A DNA stretch of 64,000 nucleotides from Pseudanabaena sp. ELA645 (lineage in GTDB: Bacteria; Cyanobacteriota; Cyanobacteriia; Pseudanabaenales; Pseudanabaenaceae), in the NCBI GenBank assembly GCA_037129985.1, contig JBAXTW010000002.1:14904-78903 (forward strand). The letters run 5' to 3'. The notes under the pieces are model-generated. The model was not told the origin of the DNA. It worked only from the letters and a program-made list of their open reading frames with translations, and did not search any database. Shown in pieces: positions 3,050 through 52,397 of the stretch. The translations under genes and the position numbers were made by a program. How positions within the stretch are numbered: position 1 is the first letter of the stretch; each line of letters starts with the position of its first letter.

Positions 3050-3330
3050 GAAACGACTAGATCCCCCAGCCCCCTTACGAAAGATTATCTTCTTCCCCCT
3101 TTTTAAGGGGGATTGAGGGGGATCTCTTGGAACATTTGACAGTAAAAAGTAATTCTTAACTGATGTTACGTGGAAGAAATTCCTGCGATCCTCAAGGTTG
3201 GGGGCTGGCACGGGGGCGCAGCCCCTACAACACATGAATTTCTCTGGTAGGGGCAATGCCCCCGTGCTTGCCCTGTTACGCTAGCAGCAAGAGATTCATC
3301 ATCTACGTTCCACGTAACATCAGTTCTTAA
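3050..3330. repeat. MITE-like element(s): 18-bp terminal inverted repeat AACTGATGTTACGTGGAA at 3158-3175 and 3307-3324, plus G/C-rich sub-hairpins
   Basis: The inverted repeat was read directly. The interior contains GCCCCTAC / GTAGGGGC motifs related to other palindromes in the window. The ORF at 3041-3256 is built entirely from this repeat. Confidence 0.6.
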
Positions 3331-23082: not shown

Positions 23083-23098
23083 ATTAAAAGGGTGTAAT

Positions 23099-23126
23099 GT
23101 AGGGGCAATTCATGAATTGCCCCTAC
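23099..23126. repeat. 28-bp perfect palindrome GTAGGGGCAATTCATGAATTGCCCCTAC
   Basis: Read directly. A second copy at 26920-26947 differs only in the last base. Confidence 0.85.
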
Positions 23127-23169
23127 ATTGAAATAAGGGTTTGAATATAGTTTTGCGTAAGTCAAAAGT

Positions 23170-44814: not shown

Positions 44815-45456
44815 ATGATCGCTGTAAAACTCCCAAAACTACAAGTTCGAGCTGGTCAGAAATTGCTAATTAAAGATGTTAGTTGGCAAGAATTTGAAGA
44901 GATTTTAGACGAATTAGGCGAGCATCGCGCTTCACGGATTGCATATCATCAAGGGGATTTAGAGATTAGGATGCCACTTCCAGAACATGAGCGGAGCAAA
45001 ATCATCATTGCTGATTTAGTCAAAATCCTCCTCAATGAACTAGATATTGCCTATGAGCCTTATGGATCAACGACGTTTAAAAACCGCACTATGGCTCAGG
45101 GTATCGAGCCTGATGATTGTTTTTATATTCAAAACGCCCATCTCATGATTGGCAAAACCAAAATTGACCTAGAAATCGACCCACCTCCCGATCTAGCGAT
45201 CGAGGTAGATCTCACTTCAAAAACTCAGCTTTCGGTATATCAAGGACTTCAAGTACCCGAACTATGGCGATGGGAGAATAATCAACTCAGAATTGATGTC
45301 TGGCAAAACGGCGAATATGTGCGATCACCCATTAGTCCAACTTTCCCAGATATTCCAATTCTTGAAATTATTCCAAAATATTTAGGGTTAGCTAATACCA
45401 AAGGAACCAGCTTTGCCATGAAAGCATTTCTCGCAAACATTAAACAAAAAAGTTAA
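44815..45456 (+). CDS. Uma2-family (DUF820) putative restriction-type endonuclease
   Basis: VSWQEFEEIL..G..RASRIAYHQGDLEIRMP..EHE and PDLAIEV with ELW are typical of the Uma2 family, which is abundant in cyanobacteria. Confidence 0.8.
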   Translation: MIAVKLPKLQVRAGQKLLIKDVSWQEFEEILDELGEHRASRIAYHQGDLEIRMPLPEHERSKIIIADLVKILLNELDIAYEPYGSTTFKNRTMAQGIEPDDCFYIQNAHLMIGKTKIDLEIDPPPDLAIEVDLTSKTQLSVYQGLQVPELWRWENNQLRIDVWQNGEYVRSPISPTFPDIPILEIIPKYLGLANTKGTSFAMKAFLANIKQKS

Positions 45457-45785
45457 AAGTGAAAAAGGAGTTTTGATAAACAAATAAGGCGATCGCTAAC
45501 TGACGAGTGTTCGTAAATCTTCAAGTGGCTTTTTCGATAGTACCTGCACAATACGCAAACCATTCCCTATGACACTTTGATCGAAAAAGTTGATAAACTA
45601 ACTGCCAAACTGGCGATCGCTATCAAATCACCCGCATTCAACCAATCGACTTTTTCCCACAAACCTCTCACGTTGAGGCGATCGCTTTTCTTAAAAAGTC
45701 GTAAGCATGAGATATGACAGGCTATATAATGGCATCTAAGTAAGGATGAATTTATCAACTTGAGGCGAAACAAAAGGGATAAAGA

Positions 45786-47009
45786 ATGTTAACTAAATTG
45801 AACTTAAGAGGTATTGGTTCTGTAAGAAATCTTGAAATTGAATTTGGAGATCGCCTCAACATTCTTACAGGTGACAATGGATTAGGCAAGAGTTTTCTGC
45901 TTGATGTGATCTGGTTTGCCTTGACAGATAACTGGATTGGCTTGCCAGCACTACCAAATTTTGACCAAGATACTTCTCCATATATTCGCTTTCAAGCCAG
46001 TAATGGAGAAGAAGGTGAGAGTGTCTTTCTATTTGATAAACAAAGATGGCAAGACTTTCAGCGTTCACAAGAAGATGAAATTGTTATCTATAGCCGTATT
46101 GATGGAGGATTTTCGATTTTCGATCCATTAAGAAAATACACTCCTGATGAAGTTTACAACTTTACAACACATCAAGTTCTGAACGGATTAATATTTAATA
46201 ATGGCTCCATACCTTGTATGGGGCTGATTCATGATCTTGACTATTGGCAGCTAAAGCAAACAGAAACACCTTATCAAATTCTCCAAAGTGTAATTCAAGA
46301 TCTGTCTCATCCTGATGAGCTAATGCAAGTTGGTTCATCTGTAAGGCTTTCAGTAGATGATAGCCGTCAGATTCCTACCCTTACCTTACCCTATGGCAAT
46401 GTTCCTGTAACTCATGTTTCTTCAGGTATTCAAAGGATTTTAAGTTTGGCATATATGCTTGTATGGACATGGGACGAACATATTCAAATCACAAAACTTA
46501 AAAGAACTGAGCCACTCAAAAAAATTGTTTTTCTAATTGATGAGTTAGAAGCACATTTACATCCCAAATGGCAAAGAACTATTCTTCCTGCCATTCTTCA
46601 AGTTTGTAAATTATTAAATCCAGAAATTGAAGTGCAAGTTGTTACAACGACACATTCGCCGATGGTGTTAGCCTCTGCTGAACCGTATTTTGATGAGGAG
46701 CTAGACAAATTATTTCTTTTTGAGTTACTTGGAAGCGAGGTAACTCTCAATGAAATTCCTTGGGTAACGCAAGGTGATGTGGTGGGATGGTTGACCTCAG
46801 AAATTTTTGACCTCAAACAAGCGCGATCGCGTGAAGCAGAGGTAGCAATTGGTGCAGCTCAAGCTTGGGCTGTTAAAGATTTATCCTATAAATTCCCTGA
46901 CAATTTAAGGACATTCGCGCAAATTCAAGCAAAACTCGAACAAGTCATTCCTGGTCACGATCCTTTCTGGATTGGTTGGACTGTCAAAAATGAGGCAAGA
47001 CAGCAATGA
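45786..47009 (+). CDS. ABC/AAA_15-AAA_21-type ATPase (PtuA-like)
   Basis: Walker A GDNGLGKS (aa 29-36), signature-like SSGIQRILSLAY, Walker B plus DExxxHLHP box VFLIDELEAHLHPKWQ, and H-loop TTHSP. Confidence 0.8.
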   Translation: MLTKLNLRGIGSVRNLEIEFGDRLNILTGDNGLGKSFLLDVIWFALTDNWIGLPALPNFDQDTSPYIRFQASNGEEGESVFLFDKQRWQDFQRSQEDEIVIYSRIDGGFSIFDPLRKYTPDEVYNFTTHQVLNGLIFNNGSIPCMGLIHDLDYWQLKQTETPYQILQSVIQDLSHPDELMQVGSSVRLSVDDSRQIPTLTLPYGNVPVTHVSSGIQRILSLAYMLVWTWDEHIQITKLKRTEPLKKIVFLIDELEAHLHPKWQRTILPAILQVCKLLNPEIEVQVVTTTHSPMVLASAEPYFDEELDKLFLFELLGSEVTLNEIPWVTQGDVVGWLTSEIFDLKQARSREAEVAIGAAQAWAVKDLSYKFPDNLRTFAQIQAKLEQVIPGHDPFWIGWTVKNEARQQ

Positions 47010-47584
47010 TTCATTTTGATCGTGTGCCAGAGCCTCCAGATTTTGAGCGAGAAGTTAGACAAAAAGGCGAAGATTGGCTGGCAAAACATCCTGACAATAA
47101 AAGACTAACAAATTTATGGTCGCCCTTTAAAAAGTATCTTGCTGATGGATTTCTAAATCTTTGCGGATATTCAGCAATGTTTGAGCCAATTGGCACAGTA
47201 GATCATTACATCAGTTGCGATAGTGATCGAACAAAAGCATACGACTGGAATAATTATCGTTTTGCTTCAGGCTGGCTTAATAGTTCTAAACAGAACTTAG
47301 ATGATCGAGTATTTGATCCCTTTGAAGTACAAAATGGTTGGTTTGAAGTAGAATTACGCACATTTAGATTAGTCCCACAGCTTGACAAGATCCCTAATAA
47401 TGAATGGGAAAAAGCTAAGCTAACTCTTGAAAAACTACACCTCGATAATGATGAAAGAGTTGTACGACAGCGTAGAGAATGGTATCGAATGTATGATTCT
47501 GGTGAGTTAAGTCTTGATGGACTAGAGAAAAAAGCTCCGCTTGTTGCCCGTGCGATCAGAAAAAGGGCGATCGCAACAAATTAG
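47006..47584 (+). CDS. PtuB/TIGR02646-like HNH-fold protein with degenerate zinc ligands
   Basis: ATGA overlap with the ATPase gene. The layout C-G-Y-S..(x)..VDHYIS..DWNNYRFASGWLNSSKQN parallels CxYCE..DH..W.NL..AC..CN..K, but three of the four Cys are replaced. Family assignment is by pattern memory only. Confidence 0.6.
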   Translation: MIHFDRVPEPPDFEREVRQKGEDWLAKHPDNKRLTNLWSPFKKYLADGFLNLCGYSAMFEPIGTVDHYISCDSDRTKAYDWNNYRFASGWLNSSKQNLDDRVFDPFEVQNGWFEVELRTFRLVPQLDKIPNNEWEKAKLTLEKLHLDNDERVVRQRREWYRMYDSGELSLDGLEKKAPLVARAIRKRAIATN

Positions 47585-47626
47585 ATTCCAAAAATCGTAA
47601 ACTTGAATACTTATAAGGAGGTAATT

Positions 47627-48727
47627 ATGAAGAGAATCGAAGTTGAGACAAGAACAATTCTGTTGACCTTGACTGGCTCTAGACTGTATCGAGTTCATAA
47701 CGAAGATAGTGATTATGATTACAAGGGAATTTGTATTCCCACACTTCCTTATTTCATTGGCACACAAAACTTTGAGCAACTAGATAGTTTTGTTGAGCCA
47801 ACCTGCTTATATCCAGCTTTAACCGATACTGACAGCAATATCTATAACATCAAAAAATTCTGTCATTTGGCAACACTAAACAACCCCAACATCCTTGAAT
47901 TGCTATGGATAGACCGCAGCGAATATCTGGTTCTGACTAGTTTTGGTGAATCTTTGATTGAAATACGGGACGCTTTTTTGAGTCAGAAAGTCTTTTACAG
48001 TTATTCTGGCTACGCTCAAGCCCAAATTAAAAAGGTACAAACCCATAGAAAATGGCTATTGCGATATAAAGAAGATCCCAATTTTTTCTCATCTCCTCCC
48101 AATCCTCAAGACTATGGACTAGAAGAGAATCCGCTTCGCAAAGAGCAGTTAAATGCTTTTCTGGAATTTCTTTACATCCTCATTAAAGATGCTAGTCAAT
48201 ACAGTGAAGTTGCGACCGAGTTGTTAACTCATGTGGACTACAAGGGACTGCTGAAACAATATCCGTTAGCTGAAGAGTTGTTACCAGCAATGCAGTACTA
48301 CACCAGATCAACCAACGATTTTGTGACCTTACTGCACAATACGCAAACCTATCGCCAAGCATTGCAAGAGTATGAAGCCTTTCAGTCATGGCGTAAAAAT
48401 CGCAATTCCAAACGGGCGGCGATCGAAGAAAAGGTGGGCTATGACAGCAAGCATTCTGGACATTGCTATCGTTTACTCAAGTCGGGAATCGAAATCTTGA
48501 ATGGTGAAGGCGTTATTCCTAATCGCGAAATTACGGGTGATGCTCAATTTATTCGCCAAATTCGCAATGGTGAAATACCATACGATACTTTGATCGCAGA
48601 GGTTGACGGGCTAACTGCTAAGCTGGCGATCGCAATGGAAAACACTAAACTACCCAAATATCCAGATCAAAAGGCGATCGAAGAAAAGCAGATGGAGATT
48701 ATTAAGGCATATCTTGAGTTTAAATAA
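47627..48727 (+). CDS. Pol-beta-superfamily nucleotidyltransferase (PF10127/RlaP-like)
   Basis: N-terminal LTGSRLYRVHNEDSDYDYKG (GS...D.D NTase signature). A strong AAGGAGG lies 6 nt upstream of the ATG at 47627, and the gene starts 42 nt after the preceding gene. Confidence 0.65.
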   Translation: MKRIEVETRTILLTLTGSRLYRVHNEDSDYDYKGICIPTLPYFIGTQNFEQLDSFVEPTCLYPALTDTDSNIYNIKKFCHLATLNNPNILELLWIDRSEYLVLTSFGESLIEIRDAFLSQKVFYSYSGYAQAQIKKVQTHRKWLLRYKEDPNFFSSPPNPQDYGLEENPLRKEQLNAFLEFLYILIKDASQYSEVATELLTHVDYKGLLKQYPLAEELLPAMQYYTRSTNDFVTLLHNTQTYRQALQEYEAFQSWRKNRNSKRAAIEEKVGYDSKHSGHCYRLLKSGIEILNGEGVIPNREITGDAQFIRQIRNGEIPYDTLIAEVDGLTAKLAIAMENTKLPKYPDQKAIEEKQMEIIKAYLEFK

Positions 48728-48787
48728 TTTAATAGGGATCAACATTAAATTATGATAGAAAAATAATTGATCAAAACGTGTTAAACC

Positions 48788-49708
48788 ATGACCCTACAGT
48801 ACGCCTATATACGCGGAACATTTGTCCCCCTCGAAGATGCCACAATAAACATCCGCACCCACGCATTTCTATATGGTACGGCTGTGTTTGAAGGGGTGAA
48901 AGCGTATTGGCTACCTGAAGAAAACTGTATGGCAGCATTTCGTCTTCACGAACATTACCAACGCCTGCTCCAAAGTTGTCGCATTATCGGATTGCAGCAC
49001 CCACTTGATGTTGGCACGATGGTAGATATAACCATTGAGTTATTAAAGCGCAATCAATGTAACACAGCTACTTATCTCCGTCCGATTATTTACAAATCTG
49101 ATCTACGGATTGGACCAATTCTCAAAGTTCCCCATACTCACGATGATTTCTGTTTGTTCAGCTTGCCGATGGATGGCTATCTTGATACTAGCAATGGTAT
49201 CAAGGTTGGCGTGTCTTCGTGGCGGCGTTTAGATGACAATGCTATTCCTGCTAGGGCGAAAGTCAATGGTGCTTATGTGAATACAGCCCTTGCTAAGACC
49301 GATGGCTATGCTTCTGGTTTTGATGATGTGATTGTTTTGACTAATGAAGGTCATGTTGCCGAAGGAAGTGCAATGAATCTGTTTTTAGTAAGAGATGGAA
49401 AGCTCGTTACTAGTTCCGTTACGGATAATATTCTGGAAGGGATCACTCGCAACTCGATCATGGAATTAGCGGCTAAGGAACTAGGTATCGAAACCGTATC
49501 GCGCACAATCGATCGCACTGAGCTATATATTGCCGATGAAGCCTTTTTTGTCGGTACGGCTGCTGAAGTTACGCCAATTATCAGTGTTGACCATCGTCCT
49601 GTTGGCGATGGTGTTGTCGGTGAGATCACAGCAAAACTTCGCGATTTGTATAGCAAAGCTATTCATGGACTATTACCCGCTTATCAGCCTTGGCTAACCA
49701 AGGTATAA
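48788..49708 (+). CDS. ilvE: Branched-chain amino acid aminotransferase (class IV)
   Basis: FLYGTAVFEGVKAY, RPIIY, EGSAMNLF, EGITRNSI, and a length of ~305 aa. Confidence 0.88.
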   Translation: MTLQYAYIRGTFVPLEDATINIRTHAFLYGTAVFEGVKAYWLPEENCMAAFRLHEHYQRLLQSCRIIGLQHPLDVGTMVDITIELLKRNQCNTATYLRPIIYKSDLRIGPILKVPHTHDDFCLFSLPMDGYLDTSNGIKVGVSSWRRLDDNAIPARAKVNGAYVNTALAKTDGYASGFDDVIVLTNEGHVAEGSAMNLFLVRDGKLVTSSVTDNILEGITRNSIMELAAKELGIETVSRTIDRTELYIADEAFFVGTAAEVTPIISVDHRPVGDGVVGEITAKLRDLYSKAIHGLLPAYQPWLTKV

Positions 49709-52321: not shown

Positions 52322-52363
52322 AGCGATCAGTATTTATAAATTAGCGATCAGTATTTATAAATT
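52322..52363. repeat. Perfect 21-bp tandem duplication AGCGATCAGTATTTATAAATT x2
   Basis: Read directly. It lies between the secA terminator and the RR-VWA-FHA operon start. Confidence 0.9.
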
Positions 52364-52392
52364 AAAGAGAGGCGCTTTGCACCTCTCTTTAA
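52362..52392 (-). terminator. Terminator hairpin downstream of secA
   Basis: TTAAAGAGAGGCGC-TTTG-CACCTCTCTTTAA (one mismatch), followed by a T-run on the minus-strand reading. Confidence 0.65.
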
Positions 52393-52397
52393 TTTTT

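What the first reader, a model, noticed from the sequence alone, without database searches (positions are those of the whole stretch)
45786..48727. Three-gene cassette: PtuA-like ATPase, cysteine-less PtuB-like HNH protein and a Pol-beta nucleotidyltransferase (candidate Septu-like defence variant)
Seen in the sequence:
- Gene 1 is an ABC/AAA_15-type ATPase with GDNGLGKS, SSGIQR, VFLIDELEAHLHP and TTHSP.
- Gene 2 overlaps gene 1 by ATGA. It has the N-terminal and core layout I associate with the TIGR02646/PtuB HNH family.
- Gene 3 starts 42 nt later behind a strong AAGGAGG. It carries a GS-x9-D-x-D nucleotidyltransferase signature (LTGSRLYRVHNEDSDYDYKG).
- The cassette lies between the housekeeping genes ndhN and ilvE, next to a Uma2 nuclease gene. 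It has about one HIP1 octamer per kb, against several per kb in neighbouring core genes.

Established knowledge: Septu is a two-gene ATPase plus HNH system, and retron Ec78-type systems reuse the same pair.

Inference: the tightly linked third gene, a PF10127/RlaP-like NTase, could be a sensor, modifier or signal-generating component of an undescribed three-gene variant.
Basis: partly seen in the sequence, partly recalled or inferred. Interest (0 to 1): 0.78.

Follow-up and report, generated by a model that had tools for sequence, protein, structure and literature searches.

The report
Ordinary Septu pair beside unrelated nucleotidyltransferase
The first two genes are a standard two-gene Septu anti-phage system that landed in a variable slot of a Pseudanabaena chromosome, and the third gene is a separately evolving, phage-type RNA nucleotidyltransferase that was there first, so this is not a new three-gene system.

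Summary
The three ORFs, their motifs, the ATGA overlap and the AAGGAGG site are all real. Genes 1 and 2 are a bona fide Septu pair. They match PADLOC PtuA (E 2e-151) and PtuB (E 2e-67) models end to end, and the PtuB model's nine best PDB fold matches are all PtuB chains. Gene 3 is a full-length RlaP/PF10127 nucleotidyltransferase (phrog_388).

The proposed triad fails its own refutation test.
- None of 167 NTase loci outside the window's own lineage carries PtuA or PtuB.
- Of 80 PtuAB loci, 44 have room downstream. Only one has an RlaP gene, and it sits in a convergent operon.
- No third gene of any kind is conserved with this PtuAB subfamily.

Sister Pseudanabaena genomes keep NTase–ilvE synteny. 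Upstream of the NTase one has a different cassette (HEC-03) and another has none. Their DNA homology to the window starts exactly at the NTase ribosome-binding site.

ptuAB is flanked by a duplicated remnant of the 3' end of an m5U RNA methyltransferase gene. That gene once directly preceded the NTase.

The NTase clusters with cyanophage copies (64–66% identity). Its dN/dS is about 0.04 whatever lies upstream.

Verdict: a known defence system in a variable slot. Interest is low.

The parts
45612..45704 (+). Pseudogene remnant. It holds the last 30 codons plus the stop of a TRAM + m5U RNA methyltransferase (RlmD/TrmA-like) gene that is intact in sister genomes.
   Evidence: tblastn of the L001 methyltransferase gives 100% identity over residues 425-454. 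Alignment A2 shows the match. Pfam on the intact L001 protein gives PF05958 and PF01938.
45693..45714 (+). Left copy of an imperfect ~20-bp direct repeat (AAAAAGTCGTAAGCATGAGATA). It covers the methyltransferase stop codon region and marks the left edge of the ptuAB insert.
   Evidence: Alignment A2 and the sequence read. L083 shares the same left junction.
45715..45785 (+). ptuA upstream region, with a TATAAT hexamer at 45725-45730. It is conserved with the ptuA upstream region of L083.
   Evidence: The promoter role is inferred only. The consensus scan did not list this hexamer.
45786..47009 (+). ptuA, a Septu ABC/OLD-type ATPase of 407 aa.
   Evidence: PADLOC PDLC00307 matches at E 2.4e-151 over residues 1-406. 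Pfam gives AAA_21, AAA_15 and AAA_23. The best PDB sequence hits are PtuA chains.
47006..47584 (+). ptuB, a Septu HNH nuclease of 192 aa from a cysteine-poor subfamily. D66-H67, N83 and N92 are conserved.
   Evidence: PADLOC PDLC00348 matches at E 2e-67 over residues 1-190. The AF2 model has pLDDT 84.9, and its top 9 PDB fold hits are all PtuB chains at probability 1.00. Invariant residues come from alignment A3.
47590..47609 (+). Right copy of the direct repeat (AAAAATCGTAAACTTGAATA). It is the original methyltransferase stop region and intergenic sequence that preceded the NTase before ptuAB was inserted.
   Evidence: It is near-identical to the sequence after the L001 methyltransferase stop. 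It also matches the L002 junction between the methyltransferase stop and an NTase 5' remnant.
47627..48727 (+). RlaP-family (PF10127, phrog_388) Pol-beta nucleotidyltransferase of 366 aa. It is adjacent to the Septu system but not part of it, and it is possibly co-transcribed by read-through.
   Evidence: Pfam gives 8.8e-18 and PHROG gives 7.9e-49 over the full length. The AF2 model has pLDDT 85.8.
44815..45456 (+). Uma2-family putative endonuclease gene, which matches PADLOC candidate PDC-S17. It is a neighbour and is not linked to PtuAB elsewhere.
   Evidence: Pfam gives 2.4e-16 and PADLOC gives 1.5e-40. It is absent from the 80 PtuAB loci.

Best explanation
Genes 1 and 2 are a self-contained, canonical two-gene Septu system (PADLOC type I subfamily).

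Expected mechanism, by analogy only:
- PtuA is an ABC/OLD-type ATPase that oligomerises and holds the PtuB HNH nuclease.
- By analogy with characterised Septu and retron-Eco7 PtuAB, the complex stays inactive until phage infection.
- PtuB then cuts nucleic acid, either by DNA nicking or by cleaving the tRNA-Tyr variable loop, which stops phage replication.

How the cassette got here:
- The ~1.9-kb cassette (about 45715-47589) was inserted into the short spacer between an m5U RNA methyltransferase gene and an RlaP nucleotidyltransferase gene that was already present. The insertion duplicated about 20 bp around the methyltransferase stop codon.
- The methyltransferase was later truncated to its last 30 codons.
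- In related Pseudanabaena genomes the same spacer holds a different ATPase-plus-small-protein cassette (HEC-03) or no cassette. It therefore behaves as a small variable defence slot.

Gene 3:
- It is an independent, strongly conserved, phage-type RlaP enzyme.
- Characterised family members add one or two nucleotides to RNA 3' ends.
- In this lineage it may be transcribed by read-through from ptuAB, but it is not a Septu component.

Shown here: homology, fold, gene order, junctions and selection. Inferred: the biochemical activity, the trigger and the anti-phage phenotype.
For: Septu identity:
- The PADLOC PtuA and PtuB models match end to end.
- The top 9 PDB fold hits of the PtuB model are PtuB chains with TM about 0.6.
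- H67 and N83 are invariant and 16 residues apart, like the essential H75/N91 of Septu EcB88 (PMC13096335).

Two-gene module:
- PtuA sits immediately upstream of PtuB in 78 of 80 loci. The other two lack upstream room.
- No flanking gene family is shared by more than 5 of the 44 loci with room downstream.

NTase independence:
- None of 80 genome loci has PtuA or PtuB by tblastn.
- None of 167 loci has a PtuB-profile hit.
- NTase neighbours are housekeeping genes with order-level synteny: rplU-rpmA and chlI in Nostocales, dihydroorotase in Pseudanabaena.
- dN/dS is 0.02-0.055 whether Septu, HEC-03 or nothing lies upstream. PtuA has 0.14-0.18.

Insertion evidence:
- Homology of L001 and L016 to the window begins at 47612-47625.
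- L001 reads methyltransferase, HEC-03B, HEC-03A, NTase, ilvE.
- L016 has no cassette.
- In L002 the methyltransferase stop is followed by an NTase 5' remnant.
- The window holds the methyltransferase remnant and the flanking repeat.
- L083 reads methyltransferase, PtuA, PtuB, leuB.

Phage-type NTase:
- Viral contigs carry copies at 64-66% identity, against 48% or less in other cyanobacterial chromosomes.
- The distance tree groups the Pseudanabaena copies with the viral ones.
- phrog_388 matches over the full length.

RlaP activity: PMC12776372.
Against: - The arrangement ptuA-ptuB-NTase is fixed in every contig of this lineage (L161-L168).
- The spacer is only 42 nt and has no terminator-like hairpin, so co-transcription is plausible.
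- Two close relatives each have an ATPase-nuclease-type cassette directly abutting the NTase. The gap is 2 nt in L001.
- Septu can target tRNA and RlaP acts on damaged RNA ends, so a lineage-specific functional link cannot be excluded by genomics alone.
- Only the best 80 of 517 genome hits and the best 80 of 239 metagenome hits were inspected.
- The tree is a distance tree without support values.
Confidence: 0.85

Rival explanations
1. The three genes form an undescribed three-gene Septu variant in which the RlaP NTase is a sensor, modifier or signal generator.
For: - The genes are tightly linked and co-directional, and gene 3 has a strong ribosome-binding site.
- The arrangement is fixed in the lineage.
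- There is no terminator-like site between ptuB and the NTase.
Against: - There is no co-conservation in either direction.
- The nearest PtuAB relatives lack the NTase.
- The nearest NTase relatives lack PtuAB.
- The homology breakpoint falls exactly at the NTase ribosome-binding site.
- The NTase has no PADLOC match.
- The NTase is under equally strong constraint without Septu.
Confidence: 0.03
2. Secondary, lineage-specific coupling. After the chance juxtaposition, the NTase became co-transcribed with ptuAB and now mends or re-extends RNA or tRNA ends damaged by leaky or activated Septu. In that role it would act as a recovery or self-protection factor.
For: - Septu EcB88 and retron-Eco7 PtuAB cleave tRNA-Tyr (PMC13096335, PMC12673091).
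- RlaP adds 1-2 nucleotides to damaged RNA 3' ends and helps restore tRNA function in vitro (PMC12776372).
- The 42-nt spacer has no terminator.
- In L001 another ATPase cassette abuts the same NTase with a 2-nt gap.
Against: - The NTase sequence and its selection are the same with Septu, with HEC-03 or with neither.
- No RNA ligase or other repair partner appeared among the conserved neighbour families.
- Whether this PtuAB subfamily targets tRNA is unknown.
- The juxtaposition is explained by insertion into a variable slot.
Confidence: 0.07
3. The ptuAB pair is a decaying, non-functional remnant left by an old transfer.
For: - The adjacent methyltransferase is a pseudogene remnant.
- G+C is mildly lower than the window mean.
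Against: - Both ORFs are intact and match their models over the full length.
- All catalytic motifs are present.
- PtuA dN/dS is 0.14-0.18, which indicates purifying selection.
- The translational coupling through the ATGA overlap is retained.
Confidence: 0.05

Closest known systems
Septu (PtuA/PtuB), stand-alone type I as modelled in PADLOC (PDLC00307 / PDLC00348). The characterised examples are E. coli Septu (PDB 8EE4/8EEA) and Septu EcB88.
   Same: - Two translationally coupled genes.
- An ABC/OLD-type ATPase with Walker A, signature motif, Walker B and H-loop.
- An HNH nuclease with the PtuB fold and conserved H and N residues.
- A patchy phyletic distribution across phyla.
   Different: - Sequence similarity to the solved PtuB proteins is very low (13-16% identity in the fold alignments; no PDB hit with the sequence profile).
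- TIGR02646 and NF041761 are not met.
- This subfamily has a single invariant cysteine and no CxxC pairs.
- The substrate and the trigger have not been tested.
Retron type I-A (Ec78/Eco7) PtuAB effector module
   Same: The same ATPase-HNH pair. The best structural matches of the PtuB model are retron Ec78 PtuB chains.
   Different: - No reverse transcriptase ORF or ncRNA lies next to the pair.
- PtuA is 407 aa against about 550 aa and lacks the N-terminal extension that binds the RT (PMC12819146).
- NF041760 scores 59 bits against a cut-off of 500.
RlaP (PF10127) RNA-ligase-associated Pol-beta nucleotidyltransferases, for example P. fluorescens and P. aeruginosa RlaP and T4 NrdC.11 (phrog_388)
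   Same: - An N-terminal NTase domain with GS and DxD motifs and a further invariant Asp.
- A long helical C-terminal domain.
- A family common in phages.
   Different: - It is not found in an RtcB/RtcA or other RNA-ligase operon, either here or in 80 cyanobacterial loci.
- It is stand-alone among housekeeping genes.
- Its activity is untested.
HEC-03 (PADLOC candidate system, HEC-03A/HEC-03B)
   Same: In sister genome L001 it occupies the same slot between the methyltransferase and the NTase. It too is an AAA_15/21 ATPase plus a small partner protein.
   Different: It belongs to different protein families (DUF3696-type ATPase; HEC-03A has no Pfam match) and is not present in the window.

Membership tests
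Septu (PtuA/PtuB) | PtuA is an ABC/OLD-type P-loop ATPase (AAA_15/AAA_21) with Walker A, ABC signature, Walker B and H-loop. | tested here: met
   PADLOC PDLC00307 matches at 2.4e-151 over the full length. Pfam gives AAA_21 at 2.9e-20 and AAA_15 at 1.4e-19. The motifs lie at residues 29-36, 212-217, 248-260 and 288-292. PDB PtuA chains are the best sequence hits.
Septu (PtuA/PtuB) | PtuB is an HNH (beta-beta-alpha-Me) nuclease with catalytic His and Asn. | tested here: met
   PADLOC PDLC00348 matches at 2e-67 over the full length. The top 9 fold-search hits are PtuB chains at probability 1.00, followed by Cas9 HNH domains. D66 is nearly invariant, and H67, N83 and N92 are invariant. TIGR02646 and NF041761 are below cut-off, so this is a divergent subfamily.
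Septu (PtuA/PtuB) | The two genes are adjacent and co-oriented, and they are conserved as a pair. | tested here: met
   The ATGA overlap is confirmed. PtuA lies directly upstream of PtuB in 78 of 80 loci of this subfamily.
Septu (PtuA/PtuB) | The system protects against phage, and protection depends on the ATPase and HNH motifs. | not testable with these tools
   This needs heterologous expression and phage challenge.
   None of 80 genome NTase loci and none of 167 loci overall (genome, metagenome and viral) has PtuA or PtuB. One of the 44 PtuAB loci with at least 1.2 kb downstream has an RlaP gene, and that gene is in a convergent operon with a MiaB-like gene.
Retron type I-A (Ec78/Eco7) | A reverse transcriptase gene and an msr/msd ncRNA lie adjacent to ptuAB, and PtuA has an N-terminal extension. 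| tested here: not met
   The neighbours are Uma2, ndhN and the NTase, with no RT. There is no meaningful Rfam hit between 43000 and 50000. PtuA is 407 aa. NF041760 scores 59 bits against a cut-off of 500.
RlaP (PF10127) | A Pol-beta NTase domain with a GS motif and conserved catalytic aspartates, plus a C-terminal helical domain. | tested here: met
   PF10127 scores 65.3 bits against a cut-off of 23. G17, S18, D29 and D69 are invariant and D31 is at least 90% conserved. The AF2 model shows an N-terminal alpha/beta domain followed by a helical domain. phrog_388 matches over the full length.
RlaP (PF10127) | Genomic association with RNA ligase or RNA repair genes (RtcB/RtcA, Pnkp/Hen1-type). 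| tested here: not met
   The conserved neighbour families within 3.5 kb on either side in 80 cyanobacterial loci are rplU, rpmA, chlI, dihydroorotase and Dcm. None is an RNA ligase. The window neighbours are ptuB and ilvE.
RlaP (PF10127) | Adds 1-2 NMP to RNA 3'-OH ends. | not testable with these tools
   This biochemistry is known only for the Pseudomonas enzymes (PMC12776372).

The most novel reading that the evidence does not exclude
A phage-derived RlaP RNA nucleotidyltransferase has been domesticated in Pseudanabaena. It sits directly downstream of a slot where ATPase-nuclease defence cassettes come and go: Septu here, HEC-03 in a sister genome. Read-through transcription could couple it to these cassettes. 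It might then act as an RNA or tRNA end-repair 'reset' or self-protection factor for nucleases that damage host RNA.
Probability: 0.05. Interest if true: 0.7.

Novelty: new member of a known kind. Interest (0 to 1): 0.18.

Why it matters
There is little new biology in the proposed finding. The pair would be annotated as Septu by existing tools, and the third gene is a bystander.

The case is useful as a caution. Tight spacing and a strong ribosome-binding site do not make an operon partner. Here the homology breakpoint at the ribosome-binding site and the alternative cargo in sister genomes show an insertion next to a resident gene.

Two side results have modest value:
- A small variable defence slot lies between an m5U RNA methyltransferase gene and an RlaP gene in Pseudanabaena.
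- The Pseudanabaena RlaP gene groups with cyanophage copies and is under very strong purifying selection, although it is not in an RNA-repair operon.

Tried and rejected
1. HIP1 depletion as evidence of foreign origin. The count is not significant (P=0.21) and the neighbouring core genes are equally poor.
2. L162 as a natural NTase-less variant of the same locus. The gap is a run of N in the scaffold, so it is an artefact.
3. L139 as a second independent triad. Its RlaP gene is on the opposite strand and overlaps a MiaB/MtaB-like radical-SAM gene in a convergent operon.
4. PDB searches by sequence profile for the NTase and PtuB. Neither gave a hit.
5. Fold search for the NTase. It gave only weak, generic Pol-beta NTase matches (ANT(4'), LinB, HalB; E at least 0.02). 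The published PfRlaP structure was not among the matches.
6. A recombination breakpoint at the ptuB/NTase junction within the lineage. Identity to L161 is mosaic, with dips inside both ptuA and the NTase, so there is no clean breakpoint.
7. A retron or other RNA element near the cassette. The only Rfam hit is a below-threshold plant miRNA match, which is noise.
8. The promoter and terminator consensus scan. The number of sites did not exceed the shuffled expectation, so it is uninformative except for the absence of a terminator-like site in the 42-nt spacer.
Full report
**Observation**

The region holds three co-directional ORFs.
- Gene 1 (45786-47009, 407 aa) carries GDNGLGKS (29-36), SSGIQR (212-217), VFLIDELEAHLHP (248-260) and TTHSP (288-292).
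- Gene 2 (47006-47584, 192 aa) overlaps gene 1 by ATGA.
- Gene 3 most plausibly starts at the ATG at 47627. That is 42 nt after the ptuB stop and 5 nt after AAGGAGG at 47615-47621.
- The flanking genes are NdhN, Uma2 and a class IV aminotransferase.

Several details need correction.
- PtuB has two cysteines, C53 and C71. C53 is invariant in the subfamily. There is no CxxC pair.
- The conserved acidic pair of the NTase is D29/D31, so the motif is GS-x10-DxD.
- The HIP1 argument is weak. The cassette has 3 octamers in 2.94 kb against a window mean of 1.86/kb (119 in 64 kb), giving Poisson P=0.21. ilvE and Uma2 have none.

**Identity of the proteins**

- Gene 1 matches PADLOC PtuA model PDLC00307 over its whole length (E 2.4e-151).
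- Gene 2 matches PtuB model PDLC00348 over its whole length (E 2e-67).
- Pfam sees AAA_21, AAA_15 and AAA_23 in gene 1 and nothing in gene 2.
- NCBIfam TIGR02646 and NF041761 are far below cut-off for gene 2, so this is a divergent PtuB subfamily.
- An AlphaFold2 model of gene 2 built on 30 homologues has pLDDT 84.9. Its nine best PDB matches are all PtuB chains, from retron Ec78/Eco7 and from E. coli Septu 8eea_G, at probability 1.00 and TM about 0.6. Cas9 HNH domains follow.
- In the subfamily alignment H67, N83 and N92 are invariant. The H-to-N spacing of 16 equals that of the essential H75/N91 in Septu EcB88 (PMC13096335).
- The best PDB sequence matches of gene 1 are PtuA chains.
- Gene 3 matches Pfam RlaP/PF10127 (65 bits against a cut-off of 23) and phrog_388 'nucleotidyltransferase' over its full length (7.9e-49). 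It matches no PADLOC model.
- The gene 3 model (pLDDT 85.8) is an N-terminal Pol-beta NTase domain plus a long helical domain. It has only weak, generic NTase matches in the PDB.

**Test of the triad from the NTase side**

- The NTase has more than 500 full-length homologues, mostly cyanobacterial.
- I fetched 80 genome loci with 7-kb flanks, from Pseudanabaena at 88-98% identity down to Oscillatoriales, Nostocales and Gloeobacterales at about 45%.
- None contains a PtuA or PtuB homologue.
- A PtuB profile search over 167 NTase loci, which adds metagenomic and viral loci, also found none.
- The NTase's conserved neighbours are housekeeping genes with order-level synteny. In Nostocales rplU-rpmA is upstream (19 loci) and chlI is downstream (14 loci). 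In Pseudanabaena dihydroorotase is downstream (12 loci).

**Test of the triad from the PtuAB side**

- The PtuB subfamily has about 209 homologues with a patchy distribution: Pseudanabaena, Aphanizomenon/Dolichospermum, Desulfonema and deltaproteobacterial MAGs.
- In 80 metagenomic loci PtuA sits immediately upstream of PtuB in 78. The other two lack upstream sequence.
- Of the 44 loci with at least 1.2 kb downstream, only L139 has an RlaP homologue (31% identity) by tblastn and by profile search.
- In L139 that gene lies on the opposite strand and overlaps a MiaB/MtaB-like radical-SAM gene, so it belongs to a convergent operon.
- No flanking gene family is shared by more than five loci. PtuAB of this subfamily is therefore a two-gene module.

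**Closest relatives and junctions**

- Contigs carrying the identical PtuB come from the same lineage, at 95-98% nucleotide identity, and show the same gene order as the window. One apparent exception, L162, is a scaffold gap.
- Sister genomes L001 (NTase 98%) and L016 (97%) keep the order NTase-ilvE-FHA-vWA-response regulator-secA. Their DNA homology to the window starts at 47612-47625, the NTase ribosome-binding site.
- Upstream of the NTase, L001 has an intact TRAM + m5U RNA methyltransferase gene followed by HEC-03B (PADLOC 2.3e-121) and HEC-03A (7e-35). HEC-03A ends 2 nt before the NTase.
- L016 has sulfate-transporter genes on the other strand, a 547-bp gap and no cassette.
- In L002-L015 the homology to the window is confined to the NTase ORF.
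- The window retains only the last 30 codons of the methyltransferase (45612-45701, 100% identical in protein to L001).
- In L002 the intact methyltransferase stop is followed directly by a remnant of the NTase 5' end. The ancestral order was therefore methyltransferase then NTase.
- In the window the sequence around the methyltransferase stop occurs twice, at 45693-45714 and at 47590-47609, and these two copies bracket ptuAB. This is the footprint of an insertion of about 1.9 kb.
- The nearest distinct PtuAB pairs lack the NTase. L083 (PtuA 85%) reads methyltransferase-PtuA-PtuB-leuB and shares the left junction with the window. L081 (PtuB 85%) is followed by unrelated small ORFs.

**Nature of the NTase**

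- NTase relatives at 62-67% identity lie on phage-like contigs with homing endonucleases, Sak4-like and SSB genes.
- IMG/VR holds viral contigs of 93-139 kb with copies at 64-66% identity.
- 368 cultured-phage records carry full-length but more distant homologues.
- A distance tree places the Pseudanabaena chromosomal copies inside this viral and metagenomic clade, apart from the main cyanobacterial chromosomal clade. It has no support values, so the direction of transfer is tentative.
- The gene is under very strong purifying selection (dN/dS 0.02-0.055) whether Septu, HEC-03 or nothing lies upstream. ilvE has about 0.08 and PtuA has 0.14-0.18.
- Characterised RlaP enzymes add one or two nucleotides to RNA 3' ends, prefer damaged RNA and are proposed to assist tRNA repair. 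T4 NrdC.11 is a family member (PMC12776372).

**Mechanism**

Most likely (0.85), ptuAB is an autonomous Septu system. Stand-alone Septu is described as an ATPase-nuclease pair whose DNA-nicking activity is reduced by ATP (PMC12819146). [quoted passage not shown] Which substrate this divergent subfamily uses is not known. The NTase is a resident neighbour.

A residual possibility (about 0.05-0.07) is secondary coupling. The 42-nt spacer has no terminator-like hairpin, and an RNA-end-extending enzyme next to a potentially tRNA-cutting nuclease is thematically suggestive. No comparative evidence supports it.

**Comparison, novelty and verdict**

This is a new member of a known kind. It is a Septu pair of a subfamily already modelled by PADLOC, located in a small variable slot of Pseudanabaena chromosomes. 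It is not a retron I-A module, because there is no RT, no ncRNA and PtuA is short. The three-gene variant is not supported. Interest is low (0.18). The most novel reading that remains is the repair or reset role for the phage-type RlaP, with probability about 0.05.

Noticed in passing
L001:4563-6481 (sister Pseudanabaena MAG), equivalent to the slot at window ~45715-47589: The same spacer between the methyltransferase and the NTase holds a HEC-03 candidate defence pair (HEC-03B ATPase with DUF3696, plus HEC-03A) instead of Septu. L016 has no cassette. L002 keeps a truncated HEC-03A remnant directly upstream of its relocated NTase. Together these suggest a small variable defence slot.
   Followed up: partly
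window 47627-48727; L169-L180, L250: The Pseudanabaena RlaP NTase is closer to copies on predicted viral contigs (64-66% identity) than to other cyanobacterial chromosomal copies (48% or less). It nests among the viral copies in a distance tree. In several Pseudanabaena genomes, homology to the window is confined to the ORF plus its ribosome-binding site, as if the gene moves as a single-gene unit.
   Followed up: partly
window 45612-45704: A 30-codon remnant of a TRAM + m5U RNA methyltransferase (RlmD/TrmA-like) gene sits here. No intact copy is in the 64-kb window. Whether this lineage has lost the enzyme or keeps it elsewhere is unknown.
   Followed up: partly
window 44815-45456: The Uma2-family gene matches the PADLOC single-gene candidate PDC-S17 over its full length (1.5e-40). 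It is not linked to PtuAB in other loci.
   Followed up: partly
window 45457-45785: The 329-bp intergenic stretch between Uma2 and ptuA holds 3 HIP1 octamers (9/kb), the densest stretch in the neighbourhood. Two of them lie inside or at the edge of the methyltransferase remnant.
   Followed up: no
window 46201-46500 and 48001-48900 compared with L161/L163/L164: Within the same lineage the flanks are 98-100% identical. Identity dips to 91-94% inside ptuA and in the 3' half of the NTase, so dS is 0.38 for the NTase against 0.105 for ptuA. This mosaic suggests local recombination with diverged alleles.
   Followed up: partly
window 3157-3325; L161:11430-11599: A ~170-bp element at window 3157-3325 is also present, at 83% identity and inverted, between the response-regulator gene and secA in L161, L162 and L164. 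It is absent from that position in the window (about 52326-52393). This looks like a small mobile repeat.
   Followed up: no
window 23096-23129: A ~34-bp palindromic sequence matches short stretches in L001, L016 and L005 on both strands. It is probably a dispersed cyanobacterial repeat.
   Followed up: no
L139:3008-5511 (minus strand): In a high-G+C metagenomic contig an RlaP homologue overlaps by 4 nt a MiaB/MtaB-like radical-SAM methylthiotransferase gene. In Pseudanabaena the ancestral neighbour was an m5U RNA methyltransferase. RlaP therefore lies next to an RNA-modification enzyme in both cases, which may hint at its housekeeping role.
   Followed up: no
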